Below are positions 909 through 64,000 of a DNA stretch of 64,000 nt, piece after piece. Source of the stretch: Patescibacteria group bacterium (lineage in GTDB: Bacteria; Patescibacteriota; Minisyncoccia; UBA6257; 1-14-0-10-40-38); assembly GCA_038064975.1 (NCBI GenBank), contig JBBTRX010000007.1, positions 59,026-123,025 on the forward strand, given 5' to 3'. Each line of letters opens with the position of its first letter. Positions within the stretch are counted from its first letter, which is position 1. Position numbers and translations under genes: made by a program. Under the pieces are notes generated by a model that was given only the letters and a program-made list of their open reading frames with translations, was not told the DNA's origin and searched no databases.

Positions 909-1459
909 CACTTGTCCTACTATTACTAATAGGGGTGGACTATATCATCGCCCATGAAGGGCGCGAGGTACTTCGCCTGCATCAATTAATATTTGATCGG
1001 CTACTCCCTTGCGGGATAGTCTCTACACCTTCTCTGATTACTATCAGAGCTTGGCTCGGGATTGCCCTTGGAAAGGGGTTTCCCCGAATTCACCTCGTTT
1101 GCAACCTAGATTGCTCTAGGAGGCTGCGTTATGCCGGCTTCCACTTCGCGATGACAATTGGCGCATATCAGGATACATTTATCGAGTTCTGATCTCACCC
1201 TCTCCCATGATCTGGTATAACCTTTATCTCCTACGCCGAAATCTTTTTCAGCTGGATTCAGGTGGTGAAAATCAAGAGCTCCTTGATATTTTTCGTATCC
1301 GCATATCTGGCATTGCCCGCCTTTGTAGGCAATAGCCATTGTTTTGATTTTGCGCCGGCGTTTTGCCACTGCACGAATAAGTTCTTCTCGCCGATCGGCA
1401 TATGTCCGCTTGTCAGCCATATATGGTAATTTTACCATTTTATAAGCCAAAGCGTGTTC
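909..1459 (-). mobile_element. Group I intron (551 nt) in the tRNA-Asn anticodon loop, with an HNH homing-endonuclease ORF
   Basis: It lies between U35 and U36 of the tRNA and ends with a 3'-terminal G. About 200 nt of ORF-free sequence at 909-1105 is long enough for a catalytic core. Confidence 0.6.
1106..1450 (-). CDS. HNH homing endonuclease (intron-encoded)
   Basis: Translation has CQICGY...HHLNP...CANCH, an HNH/zinc-finger nuclease motif. The ORF starts 9 nt inside the intron. Confidence 0.7.
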   Translation of the reverse strand: MAYKMVKLPYMADKRTYADRREELIRAVAKRRRKIKTMAIAYKGGQCQICGYEKYQGALDFHHLNPAEKDFGVGDKGYTRSWERVRSELDKCILICANCHREVEAGITQPPRAI

Positions 1460-11577: not shown

Positions 11578-11789
11578 ATTCCTACAGAAAGGCAACCGTG
11601 CTACACAAGCGCACGACGGACTCGACTCAAGCAGCAGCTAACATCGCCGATCGTGAATACGATGTTGCGTGGAGAGATGCCGCATATCAAAAACAGGTAT
11701 ACGGTTTCACCTCCATCGACCCCGATGAAACATGGACGCACGTCTATCACGAAGTTCTGCAAGAACTCGTGGGATACTGCCCTTCCTGA
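11574..11789 (+). CDS. Hypothetical protein, translationally coupled to the upstream ORF
   Basis: GTGA start/stop overlap. Followed by a strong terminator. Confidence 0.4.
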   Translation: MNSYRKATVLHKRTTDSTQAAANIADREYDVAWRDAAYQKQVYGFTSIDPDETWTHVYHEVLQELVGYCPS

Positions 11790-11796
11790 TTCCCTT

Positions 11797-11840
11797 GCGC
11801 CGCCAATCCCTTACCGGATAGGCGGCGCTTCTTTTTTATT
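11797..11840 (+). terminator. Rho-independent terminator
   Basis: GCGCCGCC...GGCGGCGC followed by TTCTTTTTTATTTT. Confidence 0.6.
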
Positions 11841-11933
11841 TTCTAATGTAAATTAAATGTCCATCGCACTTTACTAAGTCACGATGTCTTCGTCGCTCCT
11901 CGCTCCTTGAGAAGTGCGTGGTACACTAGATTT

Positions 11934-14904: not shown

Positions 14905-14960
14905 AAGGAAACACGCTCCGCCCCCCCGCACGACCCCTCGGTCGTGCGGCTTTTTTATTC
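14905..14960 (+). terminator. Rho-independent terminator
   Basis: CCGCACGACCCCTCGGTCGTGCGG followed by CTTTTTTATT. Confidence 0.6.
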
Positions 14961-15075
14961 ATCTCATTATTTCTTCATTGTTTAAGAAATACTATGAGCT
15001 TAGCTCCCATTATCTCTTGGGTAGCCATATTCATTTACATACGACAACATTACAACCAACCTGAGGAGTGGCACC

Positions 15076-32961: not shown

Positions 32962-33171
32962 TAAAAAAGAATCTAGAATCTAGTATTTAGAAATTAGTAT
33001 ATTGAATAAGAATTTTTAATTCACAAAAAGGAAGTGGGTAGAATATTTAAAAAGGCCATTCTTATAACTTTTCACGTCAAAGCGAGTCTTATTGTTTGAA
33101 AGGGTCATTCTGATAGCATTTCAAACAATAAGGCGAGAGGTATTTTATCCATTGTTTATTATTCATTCTTG

Positions 33172-45766: not shown

Positions 45767-46930
45767 TTATTTCTTTCGTTTTCTCAAGAATGCTGGGATA
45801 TCCCAAATGTCTTCCTCAGCTTTTTTGGCAGCTTCCTTTATAGACGGTTCTTCTACTTTCGGCTCTTCTCGATGAAACGCCTTAGGTGGCTCATCTACCG
45901 TAAAGAGCGTTGGAGATGGTGCAATATCCATACTGCGGGAAAAATTCGCATTAAATCCGGTCGCGATAAGGGTAATCTTAATCTGTCCGGGTTTTAACTT
46001 CCTATCATGATAAGCACCGAAGATGATTCTCGCGCTCGCGTCTACCGATGCCGCTATCGTTTTTGCCACGTCATTAATTTCAGTCATCCTCAAATCCTTA
46101 CTTCCAGCTATTCCAAAAAGAACTCCTCGTGCGCCTTCTATGGAAACTTCCAAGAGCGGAGAATTCACCACTTGGCTTACAGCATTCACCGCGCGATCAG
46201 GGCCGCTCCCAATACCAATGCCGACGAGCGCTGAGCCTGCATCTTGCATGATAGCTCGAACGTCCGCGAAGTCCACGTTGATAATACCCGGCATCGCGAT
46301 AAGTTCAGAGATGCCTTGTACCGCGGATCTGAGTACATCATCAATATATTCAAATGCCTTAAGAAGCGGGGTATCCTTGCGGATGATACTAAAGATCCTG
46401 TCGTTTGGGACAACAATCAGCGTATCTACTTTTTCTTTAAGCCGCATAAGGGCACTTTCTGCAATCTTCATGCGCTGAGACCCTTCAAACCCAAAAGGCT
46501 TTGTTACTACACCAACAGTGAGCGCTCCTGCCTCTCTGGCCGCTTCAGCGACAAGCGGACTTACACCAGAGCCCGTTCCTCCGCCAAGCCCTGCGGTAAT
46601 AAAAACAAGATCTGCGCCTTTCAAGGCTTCAACAATTTCTGATTTATTTTCTTCCGCCGCCTGCCTACCAATCTCCGGATTCATACCGGTACCCAAGCCA
46701 CGCGTTAAATTTCTTCCGATATAAATTTTCTTTCTCGCCTCGCAATAATCCAAATCCTGCGCATCAGTATTAATGGCGATAAACTCAAGGCCTCGAATAT
46801 TGATACTTTGAACCATCCGCGATACGGCATTTCCGCCTCCACCGCCAACTCCCACTACTTTGATTTTTGGGGTATAAATCTGCGAAGTAGTAGTTAATTC
46901 TCGTTTAGTTTTTTTCATATGAGAACCCAT
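45767..46930 (-). CDS. ftsZ: Cell division protein FtsZ
   Basis: GGGTGSG tubulin signature. VVTKPFGFEG. Confidence 0.9.
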   Translation of the reverse strand: MGSHMKKTKRELTTTSQIYTPKIKVVGVGGGGGNAVSRMVQSINIRGLEFIAINTDAQDLDYCEARKKIYIGRNLTRGLGTGMNPEIGRQAAEENKSEIVEALKGADLVFITAGLGGGTGSGVSPLVAEAAREAGALTVGVVTKPFGFEGSQRMKIAESALMRLKEKVDTLIVVPNDRIFSIIRKDTPLLKAFEYIDDVLRSAVQGISELIAMPGIINVDFADVRAIMQDAGSALVGIGIGSGPDRAVNAVSQVVNSPLLEVSIEGARGVLFGIAGSKDLRMTEINDVAKTIAASVDASARIIFGAYHDRKLKPGQIKITLIATGFNANFSRSMDIAPSPTLFTVDEPPKAFHREEPKVEEPSIKEAAKKAEEDIWDIPAFLRKRKK

Positions 46931-47200
46931 CTTAACAATCCCGCTCTATCGCGTTGCAACTCGTTTTTTGACGAGCGCAAGGCGCGACGAGAAGAGTGGA
47001 GTTTACGCTCCCTCGACGAGAAGCAACGAAGCGATTCGACAAAAACGAGCGCAACCCTTCGGGATAGGGCCAATATACCCACCCCCTGCGTCGCTCCGCC
47101 TCGGAGTAGTTTTTCACTACACCTTCGTTGTCGCTCCTTGTGATGTACCTATATTGGCTCATATCGCGTTAAGTGGGGTTGTTAAGATGAGTTCTACTAG
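46921..47200. repeat. GC-rich ftsA-ftsZ intergenic element bounded by about 29-bp imperfect inverted repeats
   Basis: Left arm CATCTTAACAATCCCGCTCTATCGCG versus the reverse complement of the right arm CATCTTAACAACCCCACTTAACGCG (24/29 identical). Internal short repeats ACGAGCGCAA x2, GTCGCTCC x2. Confidence 0.4.
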
Positions 47201-48435
47201 GGAGCAAAGTATTTCCAGGCTTTTTTGAGCAATGATGTTGCTCCCCCTAAAGGAATATTGAATTTCTTTGATTCCCCTATACTATCATATCCCATAAGCA
47301 ACAAGCCAAGACCCGCGGTAAGCTCCGGATCATCCAGCATTGTAGCGTCTTCAGAGTTCCTAATATCATATGAAGCAAGGTCCGGATTCGCTATTTGAGC
47401 CGCAAGGTGCAGTTCTTGTTTTGCGAGTTCTATAATTGAAGGGATTTTAGCTCCCCCTCCAGTAAGCACTACTCCACCCGGGAGTTGTCCTGCTTTTTTA
47501 AGATAGCCAAGTTCGTTGTTTACAAACTTAAAAATTTCCGCGAGGCGCGCTTCGATAATTTCAGCGATGTACCGTTTAGTAATATGCCCCTTTGCTCCGG
47601 GATCAATTTTTGAAAGCTCAATGTTTTCCCGCGCAGGAATCTCTTTCGCTATAGCAGATCCGTACGAAAGTTTCACCCGCTCCGCGAAATGCACCGGGAT
47701 TTTGAGCCCGATCGCAAGATCGTTAGTAATATTAGACGCTCCCACGGGAAAAACGGCGGCATGGACAATTTTACCCTCTTCATAAACACACATGCTCGTT
47801 TTTCCATAACCGATATCCACGAGCACTACACCGAGCTCGCGCTGACTTTTTGTGAGTATTGCACGAGCATCTGCGAGCGGCTGGAGAATAAGTTTTCTAA
47901 CTTCTCCCCCTAACATCTCAACGCACTTCATTAAATTTTTTATATTGGGAGCAAACGCATCAATGATTAAACTATTCACCTCCAAGCGATTGCCAACCAT
48001 CTCAACGGGGTCGCGAATATCACGAACGCCGTCAACGATATATTCTCTAACTATGGAATGGAGCACGAGGCGGTTTGCCGGAATATTAATTGCCTGGGCA
48101 CTCTGCATGGCCCGTTTAACGTCGTCTTCATTGATCTCATAATCTGCACGGGAAACAGCGACGATACCGATAGAAGATTGGACTTTAATATCGCTTGATC
48201 CGATACCGAGAAAAATCTCGGCAAGAGCGTCTTTGCTGAACTTTTTTACCTCAGCGAGTACGGGAGAAAGGGACTGCGTAAGCTCTGCGATATCATGCAC
48301 GACGCCCTTTCTAATACCCTGCGAGGGATGTTTCATAACACGAAGGACGGTGATGCCACCGTCTCGCCTTATTTCTCCAATAACTGTTTTAATAGTGGAC
48401 GATCCAACGTCCAATCCTACAATAAACCGAGGCAT
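47197..48435 (-). CDS. ftsA: Cell division protein FtsA
   Basis: Actin-like ATPase. LDVGSSTIKTVIGE phosphate-1 motif. Followed by ftsZ. Confidence 0.85.
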   Translation of the reverse strand: MPRFIVGLDVGSSTIKTVIGEIRRDGGITVLRVMKHPSQGIRKGVVHDIAELTQSLSPVLAEVKKFSKDALAEIFLGIGSSDIKVQSSIGIVAVSRADYEINEDDVKRAMQSAQAINIPANRLVLHSIVREYIVDGVRDIRDPVEMVGNRLEVNSLIIDAFAPNIKNLMKCVEMLGGEVRKLILQPLADARAILTKSQRELGVVLVDIGYGKTSMCVYEEGKIVHAAVFPVGASNITNDLAIGLKIPVHFAERVKLSYGSAIAKEIPARENIELSKIDPGAKGHITKRYIAEIIEARLAEIFKFVNNELGYLKKAGQLPGGVVLTGGGAKIPSIIELAKQELHLAAQIANPDLASYDIRNSEDATMLDDPELTAGLGLLLMGYDSIGESKKFNIPLGGATSLLKKAWKYFAP

Positions 48436-58066: not shown

Positions 58067-58429
58067 CTACAGACTCTTTGCTCTTTTTTTTAATCCTCCC
58101 ATCTGCCTTGAGACGCTGTTCAGTTGTTCTACTATTCCAGCAAATTCCTGTTCGGTTATAAGTTTATTATAACGGAAAATATCAACTCCAGCTAATGTTT
58201 CATAGAGAGACCCTTGAGCTATATCAATAAAACGACAAAATTCTTTATGTGAGCTTCTACCGCTTCCTTCGGCAATATTTAATGTTATGGAAAAAGCAGA
58301 TCTAATTAGTTGATTGCCAAGTATAAAACGATATTCTTGGGGCAATTCTTTTACTATTCGCAATATTACAAGAGATAATTCTCGCGATTCTTGATATACC
58401 GGCCATTTAAGAAAGCCGAACTTCTCCAT
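58067..58429 (-). CDS. Four-helix-bundle protein (TIGR02436, '23S rRNA intervening-sequence protein' family)
   Basis: LGNQLIRSAFSITLNIAEGSGRSSHKEFCRFIDIAQGSLYETL matches the family core (NIAEG.GR.S..EF..F..IA.GSL.E). Confidence 0.75.
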   Translation of the reverse strand: MEKFGFLKWPVYQESRELSLVILRIVKELPQEYRFILGNQLIRSAFSITLNIAEGSGRSSHKEFCRFIDIAQGSLYETLAGVDIFRYNKLITEQEFAGIVEQLNSVSRQMGGLKKRAKSL

Positions 58430-60207: not shown

Positions 60208-60576
60208 TCAAATCTTCCCTTTCCCTCTCATAGTTATGATACTTGATGCTAAAATTTTTGCTATCTCTACGGTTTCCTTTAATAATTCTTCCGACTCCTT
60301 ATTATCGCATTTTTGAGCGTCTTTTATAAGATGAATCCAGAATTCTGACTCATTAGCTGATTTTAAAGCATGATTATAAAAATTGATGTAATCTTTCTTA
60401 GAACTGGCTGACTTAGCTTCAAAAATATTCGCCGCCACTGAAGTACCACTACGCAATAATTGATTAGTGAGTACTCCTGATGAGGAATCTTTTCTTATTT
60501 TTTCAACGAATATAACGATATTGAGAGCATATGTATACAATCTTTTATAAAAATCATCTTTACTAAATTCTGACAT
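60208..60576 (-). CDS. Four-helix-bundle protein (TIGR02436 family), second copy
   Basis: LTNQLLRSGTSVAANIFEAKSASSKKDYINFYNHALKSANESEFWI has the same family core. Divergent paralog of 58067..58429. Confidence 0.7.
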   Translation of the reverse strand: MSEFSKDDFYKRLYTYALNIVIFVEKIRKDSSSGVLTNQLLRSGTSVAANIFEAKSASSKKDYINFYNHALKSANESEFWIHLIKDAQKCDNKESEELLKETVEIAKILASSIITMRGKGKI

Positions 60577-62880: not shown

Positions 62881-63165
62881 TTACCTAACTATGAGTGCTT
62901 GCCTTACAGTTGCCCCAATCTTACGCGGTCCGACAAATGCCGAACTGACGCATCGTGACTTTAAGGCTCCACGACGAACACCTTCAAATGAAAATGAATC
63001 GACACCGACTATTCTCTTTAAAAAAGAAGAATAATCAAAGTTTAATTGATCCACGAGCAGCTTCCGCTACCCGTGCCTTGTTACGACTTAGCCCTTGTCA
63101 CCGAACCTACCCTAATCCAGCAAGCTGAACTTTAGGTATTCCCGGCTTCCTTGACTTGACGGGCG

Positions 63166-63700
63166 AATATTTTCTCAAAAACTGAGAATGAATGTTCCCA
63201 CTGCACAGACGGATTTCCCGTATGCAGCGAGCTCAATGCATCGTTTGCTTTAATGTGAGCAAGCTTTGTAAGCCTGAGTCGGTAAGATGTTCCCCTTCTT
63301 TGATTGCATCCATAATTTCGCAGAAAACTTTGAAATCATGCCTCTTAGATGGAAAACGTAACGGATATTTCTTGAAAAACGGAATAATAATGTTTTCCAA
63401 GTCTTTCCGATTAGCGACTTCAAACCGGTAGCAATGCTGGTGATTTTTTCTACTATCTTTCTGGAAATATACATTTCCACACTGGAAAAAATCTTTTACA
63501 GCATCAAGGACTGTCTTGTCTTTTTCTACCAGCTTGATATAGAACCGTGGTTCTATTCTTGCTCGCCTGATTCGTTCCGTAGATTCATTGATATTGCGAA
63601 CATACGCAGTAAAGCTTCCTTCGCCATCAACTAATCCAACGATATAATCAGGATTAAACATTGTATTGAGTGAGGGCCTTCTTCCGACCTTATATCGGAA
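63166..63700 (-). mobile_element. Intron-like insertion (probable group I intron) in 16S near E. coli position ~1395; 5' boundary uncertain
   Basis: Canonical 16S sequence resumes at CGCCCGUCA (plus 63165 downward). The insertion contains a complete LAGLIDADG ORF. Confidence 0.5.
63233..63661 (-). CDS. LAGLIDADG homing endonuclease (single-motif, I-CreI-like size)
   Basis: N-terminal YIVGLVDGEGSF LAGLIDADG motif; 142 aa. Confidence 0.75.
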   Translation of the reverse strand: MFNPDYIVGLVDGEGSFTAYVRNINESTERIRRARIEPRFYIKLVEKDKTVLDAVKDFFQCGNVYFQKDSRKNHQHCYRFEVANRKDLENIIIPFFKKYPLRFPSKRHDFKVFCEIMDAIKEGEHLTDSGLQSLLTLKQTMH

Positions 63701-64000
63701 TACTATGCCTCAGCTGACTTCTGACGCTGCGTTAGTTTTTATGATACCACGGCATCTTGCCATGGACAGCCATCAGATCTCCACAGGTCACGTAATATAC
63801 TATTCCAAACATCCGAGACGAACCTTTTCCCGTGATCTTCCTTATCCTCACCGCCCACTGATAAGTCGATCGATTCTCCGCGTGTTGCGGATACGTCTTG
63901 GCTGTTTTTTGCCGACAGATCCTCCATCTCGCCCCTTCACAGAGGCGGACTATCTTTGGCTACGCTCCGACTAGACTTCATCGGAGGAGTGGATTCAAAC

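What the first reader, a model, noticed from the sequence alone, without database searches (positions are those of the whole stretch)
46921..47200. Structured GC-rich spacer with about 29-bp terminal inverted repeats between ftsA and ftsZ
ftsA-ftsZ spacers are normally short. Here 267 nt of GC-rich, internally repetitive sequence is bracketed by imperfect inverted repeats (CATCTTAACAA(T/C)CCC...CGCG, 24/29), with the left arm overlapping the ftsZ start. It may be a MITE-like insertion, or a structured 5'-UTR or regulatory RNA controlling ftsZ translation.
Basis: seen in the sequence. Interest (0 to 1): 0.5.

Follow-up and report, generated by a model that had tools for sequence, protein, structure and literature searches.

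The report
Self-folding insertion between ftsA and ftsZ
In one groundwater ultra-small bacterium, a 272-base non-coding insert that folds back on itself sits exactly in the 6-base gap that normally separates the cell-division genes ftsA and ftsZ. It is real and unusual for this lineage, but it is a one-off with no relatives, so a role beyond being tolerated is unproven.

Summary
ftsA (47197-48435) and ftsZ (45767-46918/46930), both on the minus strand, are separated by 266-278 nt. This spacer has the highest GC (0.52 against 0.43) and the strongest predicted fold (z about -5 to -6) of the 20 spacers folded in the window. It is closed by a 23-position inverted repeat (47195-47173 / 46922-46944), the best in the window.

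It is a lineage-specific insertion. The closest relatives keep the same gene order, and five loci (four distinct relatives) have a 6-nt spacer. Removing 46923-47194 from the window also leaves 6 nt (TA|TCAT).

It is an orphan:
- No second copy in about 82 kb of the same genome.
- No Rfam family.
- No related sequence among relatives, phages, plasmids, viral or metagenome contigs.
- No protein match in any reading frame.

MITE membership is therefore unproven, and a conserved regulatory RNA is not supported.

The arm buries only a spurious upstream in-frame AUG (46930). The likely true start (46918) lies 3-4 nt outside the helix foot, and the ftsA stop lies 1-2 nt from the other foot. This genome also lacks the anti-Shine-Dalgarno sequence.

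My best reading, which is inferred, is a tolerated insert looped out at the RNA level, which keeps stop and start close together. Interest is modest.

The parts
47197..48435 (-). ftsA (412 aa). Stop UAG at 47199-47197, followed in frame by a second UAG.
   Evidence: ORF list. Pfam SHS2_FTSA/FtsA on the called gene. The C-terminal codons TTT GCT CCC TAG match relative L092.
47173..47195 (-). 5' arm of the closing helix, equal to the left terminal inverted repeat (AGAACUCAUCUUAACAACCCCAC). It begins 1-2 nt after the ftsA stop.
   Evidence: the repeat finder pair I1. Core pattern unique to the two arms. Pair probabilities 0.9-1.0.
46945..47172 (-). GC-rich interior: a multi-branched set of local hairpins plus long-range helices. 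It is not a simple palindrome.
   Evidence: MFE and centroid structures. Without the arms the interior still gives z -2.9 on the sense strand. The sense fold is better defined than the antisense fold (-79.2 vs -71.5 kcal/mol; centroid -64 vs -26). The MFE has 10 G.U pairs in sense against 7 in antisense.
46922..46944 (-). 3' arm of the closing helix, equal to the right terminal inverted repeat (GCGGGAUUGUUAAGAUGGGUUCU). It ends 3-4 nt before ATG 46918.
46928..46930 (-). Upstream in-frame AUG (start of the 387-aa ORF). It is buried in the 16-bp perfect part of the helix and is probably not used.
   Evidence: Unpaired probability 0.00, the lowest of 44 start codons tested. Relatives and the NCBI 383-aa protein start at the next AUG.
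46916..46918 (-). Likely true ftsZ start codon (MKKTKRE...), followed by an A-rich unstructured stretch.
   Evidence: N-termini of relatives are MKKSK/MKKKK. P0001 is 383 aa. Unpaired probability is 0.8-0.96 in local contexts, but the codon pairs with ftsA codons 47367-47374 in contexts longer than 600 nt.
46929..46937 (-). TGTTAAGAT, an extended -10-like motif inside the right arm. It faces outward and ends 10 nt before ATG 46918. A mirror copy in the left arm faces ftsA.
   Evidence: Consensus match only. Three other genes in the window carry -10-like hexamers ending 10 nt before the ATG. It is not reported by the sigma-70 scan, which requires a -35 element.
45767..46918 (-). ftsZ (383 aa from ATG 46918)
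   Evidence: Pfam Tubulin/FtsZ_C. Homologues found.

Best explanation
What it is (well supported): a single-copy, non-coding insertion of about 272 bp (46923-47194). It is bounded by 22-23-bp imperfect terminal inverted repeats. It landed precisely in the 6-nt junction between the ftsA stop and the ftsZ start of one groundwater Paceibacteria/Patescibacteria lineage. Its origin is most simply a small repeat-bounded (MITE-like) mobile or recombinational insertion that is now an orphan.

How it works (inferred):
1. It is transcribed as part of the yqeY-ybeY-ftsA-ftsZ message.
2. It folds on itself. A helix of 16 uninterrupted plus about 6 further base pairs closes a GC-rich multi-branched domain.
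3. The 272 nt are thereby looped out. The ftsA UAG then sits 1-2 nt from the 5' foot of the helix and the real ftsZ AUG (46918) sits 3-4 nt from the 3' foot.
4. This organism lacks the anti-Shine-Dalgarno sequence, and its relatives join the two genes by 6 T-rich nucleotides. The fold would therefore preserve the stop-start proximity, and the exposed A-rich start region, on which ftsZ translation depends (coupled re-initiation or hand-over). It would also hide the spurious AUG 46930 created by the right arm.

On this reading the element is a tolerated, structurally neutralised insert rather than a dedicated conserved regulator.
For: Insertion:
- Five loci from four distinct nearest relatives (FtsZ 71-77% identical, same synteny) have a 6-nt spacer.
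- The 15 next closest relatives have -4 to 71 nt.
- Removing the repeat-bounded block leaves TAG-TA|TCAT-ATG, which is also 6 nt.

Non-coding and orphan:
- No gene is called there in the source assembly.
- No Pfam or homologue match for the 76-aa sense ORF or for any other frame.
- No Rfam hit.

Structure:
- z is -5.2.
- It is the most structured of the 20 spacers folded and has the highest GC of 29 gaps.
- The helix probability is about 1.0 in four sequence contexts.
- The interior is independently structured, and the sense strand folds better and more definitely.

Geometry and translation context:
- AUG 46930 is fully paired, and AUG 46918 is open in local contexts.
- The 16S 3' end reads GGAUCAAUUAAACUUU, without CCUCC, and about 40 of 43 genes lack a Shine-Dalgarno motif.

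Parallel case: relative L099/L100 carries an unrelated 80-nt hairpin closed by inverted repeats. It starts 1 nt after the ftsA stop and ends 13 nt before the ftsZ ATG. Self-folding inserts therefore recur at this junction.
Against: - There is one sequence only, so no covariation, no conservation and no expression data. All structure is predicted.
- An insertion into a 6-nt gap must abut both codons whatever its function, so the geometry is not independent evidence.
- The accessibility of AUG 46918 depends on context. In contexts longer than 600 nt it pairs with ftsA codons 47367-47374.
- A ribosome stopping at the ftsA UAG would have to melt a few pairs at the helix foot.
- Re-initiation across a looped-out domain is not an established bacterial mechanism, to my knowledge.
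- The right arm carries an extended -10-like motif that could instead give ftsZ its own promoter.
- A MITE-type origin lacks its defining support, because no other copy and no clean target duplication were found.
Confidence: 0.4

Rival explanations
1. An ordinary multi-copy MITE, that is a non-autonomous transposon mobilised in trans. It happens to sit here and has no role, and its other copies lie in the unseen part of the genome.
For: It is 272 bp, has 22-23-bp imperfect terminal inverted repeats, is non-coding and intergenic, is absent from relatives, and has clean boundaries at the repeat ends. Both arms carry outward-facing -10-like motifs, as many IS and MITE ends do.
Against: No second copy or second arm was found in the 64-kb window or in 18 kb of further flanks. 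None was found in 100 related loci, in the viral or metagenome pattern scans, or among ORFs called anywhere. The flanks are TA...TC, not a clean duplication. No transposase with these ends lies in the window. The interior is GC-rich and independently structured rather than IS-derived filler.
Confidence: 0.25
2. The right arm supplies an outward-facing promoter (extended -10, TGTTAAGAT). This would give ftsZ its own, nearly leaderless transcript, uncoupling it from ftsA and raising the FtsZ:FtsA ratio.
For: The motif ends 10 nt before ATG 46918. Three other genes in the window have -10-like hexamers ending 10 nt before the start (two with a TG extension), and 14 of 43 have one ending 6-11 nt before it. 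The genome lacks the anti-Shine-Dalgarno sequence, which fits leaderless initiation. Distant relatives with long spacers do have a terminator plus a promoter upstream of ftsZ.
Against: The hexamer TAAGAT matches only 4 of 6 positions. The only -35-like hexamer, TTGCAA, is 19 nt upstream. The sigma-70 scan reports nothing on this strand. There is no terminator after ftsA. The motif may simply be part of an arbitrary repeat sequence.
Confidence: 0.15
3. The closing helix is an RNase III processing site, like the stems that flank rRNAs and rRNA intervening sequences. Cleavage would separate the ftsA and ftsZ mRNAs, release the interior, and leave ftsZ with a very short leader.
For: The helix has 16 contiguous plus 6 further base pairs, about two helical turns, with probability about 1.0. 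The same genome carries several rRNA-associated insertions: a group I intron, a group II domain match, a LAGLIDADG ORF next to the 16S 3' end, and two 23S-IVS-protein genes.
Against: No cleavage data exist. I did not check for an rnc gene. A long helix alone does not show that RNase III acts on it.
Confidence: 0.12
4. A stand-alone or cis-acting functional RNA of a new class (riboswitch, sRNA, or an antisense RNA like E. coli StfZ) that senses a signal and gates ftsZ.
For: It has the strongest fold of the 20 spacers folded and the highest GC of 29 gaps in the window. That is the signature used to find new structured RNAs in AT-rich genomes. Its position in front of a gene that needs tight control fits. 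There is one sigma-70-like hit on the plus strand, 47128-47155.
Against: No relative carries it, even the closest ones. Rfam gave nothing at E<=10. The promoter count is at the chance level (1 found against 1.3 expected). A regulator of an essential gene would be expected to be conserved at least among sister lineages.
Confidence: 0.05
5. A small protein gene: the 76-aa sense-strand ORF at 46932-47162, whose stop overlaps the ftsZ start region.
For: An ATG-initiated ORF on the sense strand fills most of the spacer and ends 1 nt before ATG 46930.
Against: No Pfam match and no homologue among 5.8 billion proteins. The assembly's gene caller did not call it. The other strand has open frames of similar length (74 and 86 aa), as expected for GC-rich sequence.
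Confidence: 0.02

Closest known systems
Bacterial MITEs and intergenic repeat elements (Neisseria Correia elements, enterobacterial ERIC, pneumococcal RUP); comparison from general knowledge
   Same: They are 100-300 bp and non-coding, with terminal inverted repeats. They insert between genes of an operon, are co-transcribed and fold into long hairpins. Their ends can carry outward promoters or RNase III sites.
   Different: Only one copy was found here. There is no clean target duplication and no sequence similarity to anything. The interior is not a simple foldback but an independently structured, GC-enriched domain.
rRNA intervening sequences and rRNA processing stems cut by RNase III (general knowledge)
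   Same: An extra structured block closed by a long helix inside a transcript. Such inserts are frequent in Patescibacteria rRNA genes, and related insertions are seen in this window.
   Different: This block lies in an mRNA between two ORFs. There is no evidence of excision.
Structure-mediated translational coupling and shunting (MS2 coat-replicase long-range pairing; the CaMV 35S leader shunt, where a short ORF ends just before the base of a large stem and ribosomes resume just after it); general knowledge
   Same: The geometry matches. An upstream ORF stops 1-2 nt before the foot of a strong helix, and the next start lies 3-4 nt after it.
   Different: Shunting is a eukaryotic mechanism and has not been demonstrated in bacteria. 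Nothing here was tested functionally.
StfZ antisense RNA and DicF sRNA of E. coli, which act on the ftsA-ftsZ junction and the ftsZ translation-initiation region (PMC9628754, PMC5069750; titles and abstracts only)
   Same: RNA-level control acting at the ftsA-ftsZ junction.
   Different: Those are antisense or trans-acting RNAs in gamma-proteobacteria. There is no homology, and an antisense promoter here is not supported above chance.

Membership tests
MITE (miniature inverted-repeat transposable element) | Terminal inverted repeats at both ends | tested here: met
   Arms of 23 positions, 20 of them complementary. This is the best inverted repeat in the window.
MITE | Small size (about 50-500 bp) with no coding capacity | tested here: met
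   272 bp. No called gene, and no Pfam or homologue match in any frame.
MITE | Multiple copies in the genome | tested here: inconclusive
   No other copy in the 64-kb window plus 18 kb of flanks, and none in public collections by pattern or protein proxy. The rest of the genome could not be read.
MITE | Direct target-site duplication flanking the repeats | tested here: not met
   The flanks are TA and TC. Excision without any duplication restores the clade's 6-nt spacer. A degenerate TA duplication cannot be excluded.
MITE | A parent IS or transposase with matching ends | tested here: inconclusive
   The arm motif occurs nowhere else in the window. The whole genome was not available.
Any Rfam family (riboswitches, cis-regulatory leaders, sRNAs, ribozymes, 6S, RNase P, tmRNA) | A match to the family covariance model | tested here: not met
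   No hit at gathering thresholds. At E<=10 over 46700-47400 the only hit is a noise match to RybB outside the element. ARAGORN found nothing.
Conserved cis-regulatory 5'-UTR of ftsZ | Presence in orthologous spacers with covarying base pairs | tested here: not met
   The closest relatives have 6-nt spacers. Longer spacers elsewhere are unrelated in sequence.
RNase III processing stem or IVS-like insert | A double-stranded helix of about two turns closing the insert | tested here: met
   16 uninterrupted plus 6 further pairs, with probability about 1.0.
RNase III processing stem or IVS-like insert | Actual cleavage, and an RNase III gene in the genome | not tested
   No transcript data are available, and I did not look for rnc.

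The most novel reading that the evidence does not exclude
In a bacterium that has lost the anti-Shine-Dalgarno sequence, ribosomes finishing ftsA are handed across the foot of a 22-bp helix to the ftsZ start codon. They would bypass a looped-out 272-nt domain, in a prokaryotic analogue of termination-dependent ribosome shunting. If so, self-folding is the condition that allows insertions to survive at tightly coupled gene junctions. An independent hairpin insert at the same junction in relative L099/L100 fits this idea.
Probability: 0.1. Interest if true: 0.7.

Novelty: new variant of a known kind. Interest (0 to 1): 0.3.

Why it matters
ftsA and ftsZ must be made in a controlled ratio, and in this clade they are joined by only 6 nt with no ribosome-binding site. 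A 272-nt structured block dropped into that junction, yet compatible with life, is a natural experiment on how translation passes between genes without Shine-Dalgarno pairing. If the loop-out and hand-over idea is right, it would show a new way for operons to absorb insertions. It would also give a testable case of structure-mediated re-initiation in Patescibacteria, for which there is almost no molecular biology. If it is simply a relic mobile element, it is a minor curiosity.

Tried and rejected
- Rfam at gathering thresholds on the whole window, and at E<=10 on 46700-47400, found nothing in the spacer. ARAGORN found no tRNA or tmRNA.
- blastn of the spacer against the window found only itself and its own arms.
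- nhmmer and blastn against 80 genome loci of relatives and against extra flanks of the same genome found nothing.
- The pattern of both arms plus a gap, scanned in viral contigs, gave 0 hits.
- The same pattern in JGI metagenomes gave 4 hits. All are AT-rich (18-25% GC) foldback elements in ORF-poor contigs that look eukaryotic. They share only the designed arm core plus a few bases, so I rejected them as relatives.
- blastn in distant mode against phages and plasmids gave only noise at E of 0.3 to 1.
- Protein proxies for hidden copies also failed. The 76-aa sense ORF and a concatenation of all long open frames found no protein at E<=10. Pfam gave nothing.
- The promoter and terminator scan was at the chance level.
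- Tandem Repeats Finder found nothing.
- Strand assignment from the whole-element MFE was indecisive (-115 against -111 kcal/mol). Only the interior favours the sense strand.
- One script for dinucleotide-shuffled z-scores of all spacers timed out. I repeated it with mononucleotide shuffles.
- I did not build a covariance model. With a single sequence and no homologues it would add little.
- Literature searches found no paper linking MITEs or anti-Shine-Dalgarno loss to Patescibacteria.

Full report
**What is there.** Both genes lie on the minus strand. ftsA is 47197-48435 with stop UAG at 47199-47197. ftsZ is 45767-46930 as the longest ORF. Upstream in the same direction are ybeY and yqeY. 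The spacer 46931-47196 is 266 nt.

The ftsZ N-termini of relatives are MKKSK and MKKKK, and the NCBI version of this same protein is 383 aa. Both point to ATG 46918 as the real start, which makes the spacer 278 nt. Spacer GC is 0.515 against 0.433 for the window, the highest of 29 intergenic gaps.

**The inverted repeat is real.** The arms 47195-47173 and 46922-46944 pair at 21 of 23 positions: 20 Watson-Crick, one G.U and two mismatches. Sixteen of these pairs are uninterrupted.
- The 15-nt core occurs only at these two places in 64 kb, against 0.26 expected.
- An ungapped repeat score of 15 exceeds that of all 201 other 315-nt tiles of the window, whose maximum is 13.
- With dinucleotide shuffles the region folds with z = -5.2 on the sense strand and -5.5 on the antisense strand.
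- It is the most structured of the 20 intergenic regions folded.
- The closing helix keeps a pair probability of about 1.0 in four sequence contexts from 400 to 900 nt.
- Without the arms the interior is still structured. It folds better and much more definitely on the sense strand: -79.2 against -71.5 kcal/mol, centroid -64 against -26, and 10 against 7 G.U pairs.

'Internally repetitive' is only weakly true. There are two exact 10-nt two-copy repeats (P about 0.005) and no tandem repeat.

**It is a lineage-specific insertion.** The source is a Hainich groundwater Patescibacteria (Paceibacteria-like) genome. No FtsZ between 77% and 100% identity exists among 5.8 billion proteins.
- Five loci from four distinct nearest relatives (FtsZ 71-77% identical: L092, L093/L094, L095, L097) keep the same synteny and have a 6-nt T-rich spacer, for example TAG ATTTTT ATG. 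L096 has 3 nt between ftsZ and an upstream ORF that I did not identify.
- The next 15 relatives have -4 to 71 nt.
- Deleting 46923-47194 from the window leaves TAG-TA|TCAT-ATG, which is again 6 nt.

The block bounded by the repeats is therefore the inserted unit. It has no clean target duplication; the flanks are TA and TC.

**It is an orphan and non-coding.** All of the following searches were negative:
- Rfam, even at E<=10.
- tRNA and tmRNA detection.
- A second copy or a second arm in the window, or in 18 kb of further flanks of the same genome.
- Similarity to 100 loci of relatives.
- Phages and plasmids.
- Viral contigs, by the arm pattern.

The metagenome pattern scan returned four AT-rich foldback elements in ORF-poor contigs that look eukaryotic. 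They are unrelated inside, so I rejected them.

The 76-aa sense ORF and all other open frames have no Pfam match and no homologue. The assembly's gene caller called nothing in the spacer.

**Context that bears on mechanism.**
- The 16S rRNA 3' end in the window reads GGAUCAAUUAAACUUU, with no CCUCC anti-Shine-Dalgarno sequence.
- About 40 of 43 genes have no Shine-Dalgarno motif.
- -10-like hexamers end 6-11 nt before the ATG in 14 of 43 genes, which suggests short or absent leaders.
- In the folded spacer, AUG 46930 is completely paired, the least accessible of 44 starts tested.
- AUG 46918 lies 3-4 nt beyond the helix foot and is open in local contexts, followed by an A-rich stretch.
- In contexts longer than 600 nt, AUG 46918 can pair with ftsA codons 47367-47374. 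This pairing is context-dependent, and ribosomes translating ftsA would remove it.
- The ftsA stop lies 1-2 nt before the other foot of the helix.

**Best explanation (confidence about 0.4).** The element is a tolerated, self-folding insert. It is transcribed within the ftsA-ftsZ message, and its closing helix loops out the 272 nt. This recreates the stop-start proximity and the open start region that relatives achieve with 6 nt, and it hides the spurious AUG supplied by the right arm.

What is shown is the insertion, the repeat, the predicted fold, the geometry and the Shine-Dalgarno-less context. What is inferred is co-transcription, folding in vivo, and coupled or hand-over initiation.

One caveat matters. 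Any insert into a 6-nt gap must abut both codons, so the geometry is not independent evidence.

A parallel case supports the idea that self-folding inserts survive at this junction. L099/L100 carry an unrelated 80-nt hairpin closed by inverted repeats, starting 1 nt after the ftsA stop and ending 13 nt before the ftsZ ATG.

**Rivals.**
- An ordinary multi-copy MITE whose other copies lie in unseen parts of the genome (0.25).
- An outward-facing extended -10 motif, TGTTAAGAT, in the right arm that gives ftsZ its own near-leaderless transcript (0.15, but nothing from the sigma-70 scan).
- An RNase III processing stem, like those of rRNA intervening sequences (0.12).
- A new functional RNA class (0.05). 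This is disfavoured because not even the closest relatives have it.
- A small protein (0.02).

**Comparison with known systems.** It works most like bacterial MITEs and intergenic repeat hairpins such as Correia, ERIC and RUP, or like intervening sequences closed by a helix. It cannot be filed as a MITE, because multi-copy status is unproven and no clean target duplication is present. It matches no Rfam family. It is not a conserved ftsZ leader. E. coli StfZ and DicF also act at this junction but are unrelated antisense or trans-acting RNAs. The stop-helix-start geometry resembles termination-dependent shunting on the CaMV leader, but that is only an analogy.

**Verdict.** This is a real and locally exceptional feature, correctly spotted. 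It is best described as an orphan, repeat-bounded, structured insertion at a normally 6-nt gene junction. It is a new variant of a known kind and of modest interest (0.3), because it is a singleton with no conservation or expression evidence. The most novel reading not excluded is ribosome hand-over across a looped-out domain in a Shine-Dalgarno-less bacterium. I give that about 10% probability, and it would be interesting if true.

Noticed in passing
window 63035-63166 (- strand): The 16S rRNA 3' end reads ...GGAAGCUGCUCGUGGAUCAAUUAAACUUU. The usual CCUCC anti-Shine-Dalgarno tail is absent and is found nowhere nearby. About 40 of 43 genes in the window lack a Shine-Dalgarno motif, and 14 of 43 have a -10-like hexamer ending 6-11 nt before the ATG, which suggests leaderless or short-leader mRNAs.
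   Followed up: partly
window 63052-63751 (- strand): Only 115 nt of SSU rRNA match at the gathering threshold. Next to them lie a LAGLIDADG endonuclease ORF (63233-63661) and a group II intron D1-D4 match (63675-63751). The 16S gene appears to be interrupted by insertions.
   Followed up: no
window 916-1184 (- strand): A complete group I intron match (59 bits, E = 1.7e-12) at the start of the window. I did not determine the host gene.
   Followed up: no
window 58067-58429 and 60208-60576 (- strand): Two PF05635 genes ('23S rRNA intervening sequence protein', a four-helix-bundle family) flank the pilB-like T2SSE ATPase gene inside a type IV pilus cluster.
   Followed up: no
L099 and L100, 1407-1500: A relative (FtsZ 70% identical) carries an unrelated 80-nt hairpin closed by inverted repeats (CATCAGCGAATAACGAAT...ATTCGTAATTCGTTGATG). 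It starts 1 nt after the ftsA stop and ends 13 nt before the ftsZ ATG. This is an independent self-folding insert at the same junction.
   Followed up: partly
L098 1381-1500; L001 563-633; L002 2972-3003: These relatives have spacers of 120, 71 and 32 nt that share an AAGGACTA(CCATA) motif. The ftsA-ftsZ junction in this clade varies from 6 nt to 278 nt.
   Followed up: no
L079 about 2640-2820; also L080 and L046 spacers: A Yanofskybacteria ftsA-ftsZ spacer holds its own GC-rich block of about 170 nt closed by an 18-nt perfect inverted repeat, also single-copy in the data held. TTATCCACA, which looks like a DnaA box, occurs in the ftsA-ftsZ spacers of L079, L080 and L046.
   Followed up: partly
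L083 11196-11457; L084 58-329; L085 773-1044; L086 8593-8856: The metagenome hits to the arm pattern are AT-rich foldback elements of about 265-270 nt in ORF-poor contigs that look eukaryotic. L083 and L084 share with the window element a few bases beyond the pattern (CATCTTAACAACC..ACTTAA). This is probably chance.
   Followed up: partly
window 11578-11906, 14905-15075, 32962-33171: Three other intergenic stretches fold better than shuffles (z -3.7, -4.5 and -4.5 with mononucleotide shuffles). The first also has GC 0.50. They have no Rfam hit at gathering thresholds.
   Followed up: no
window 1-64000: ARAGORN finds no tRNA gene anywhere in the 64 kb.
   Followed up: no
window 46914-46921 and 47367-47374: The ftsZ start region CAUAUGAA is complementary over 8 bp to codons inside ftsA, about 170 nt before its stop. 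In long folding contexts this pairing masks AUG 46918.
   Followed up: partly
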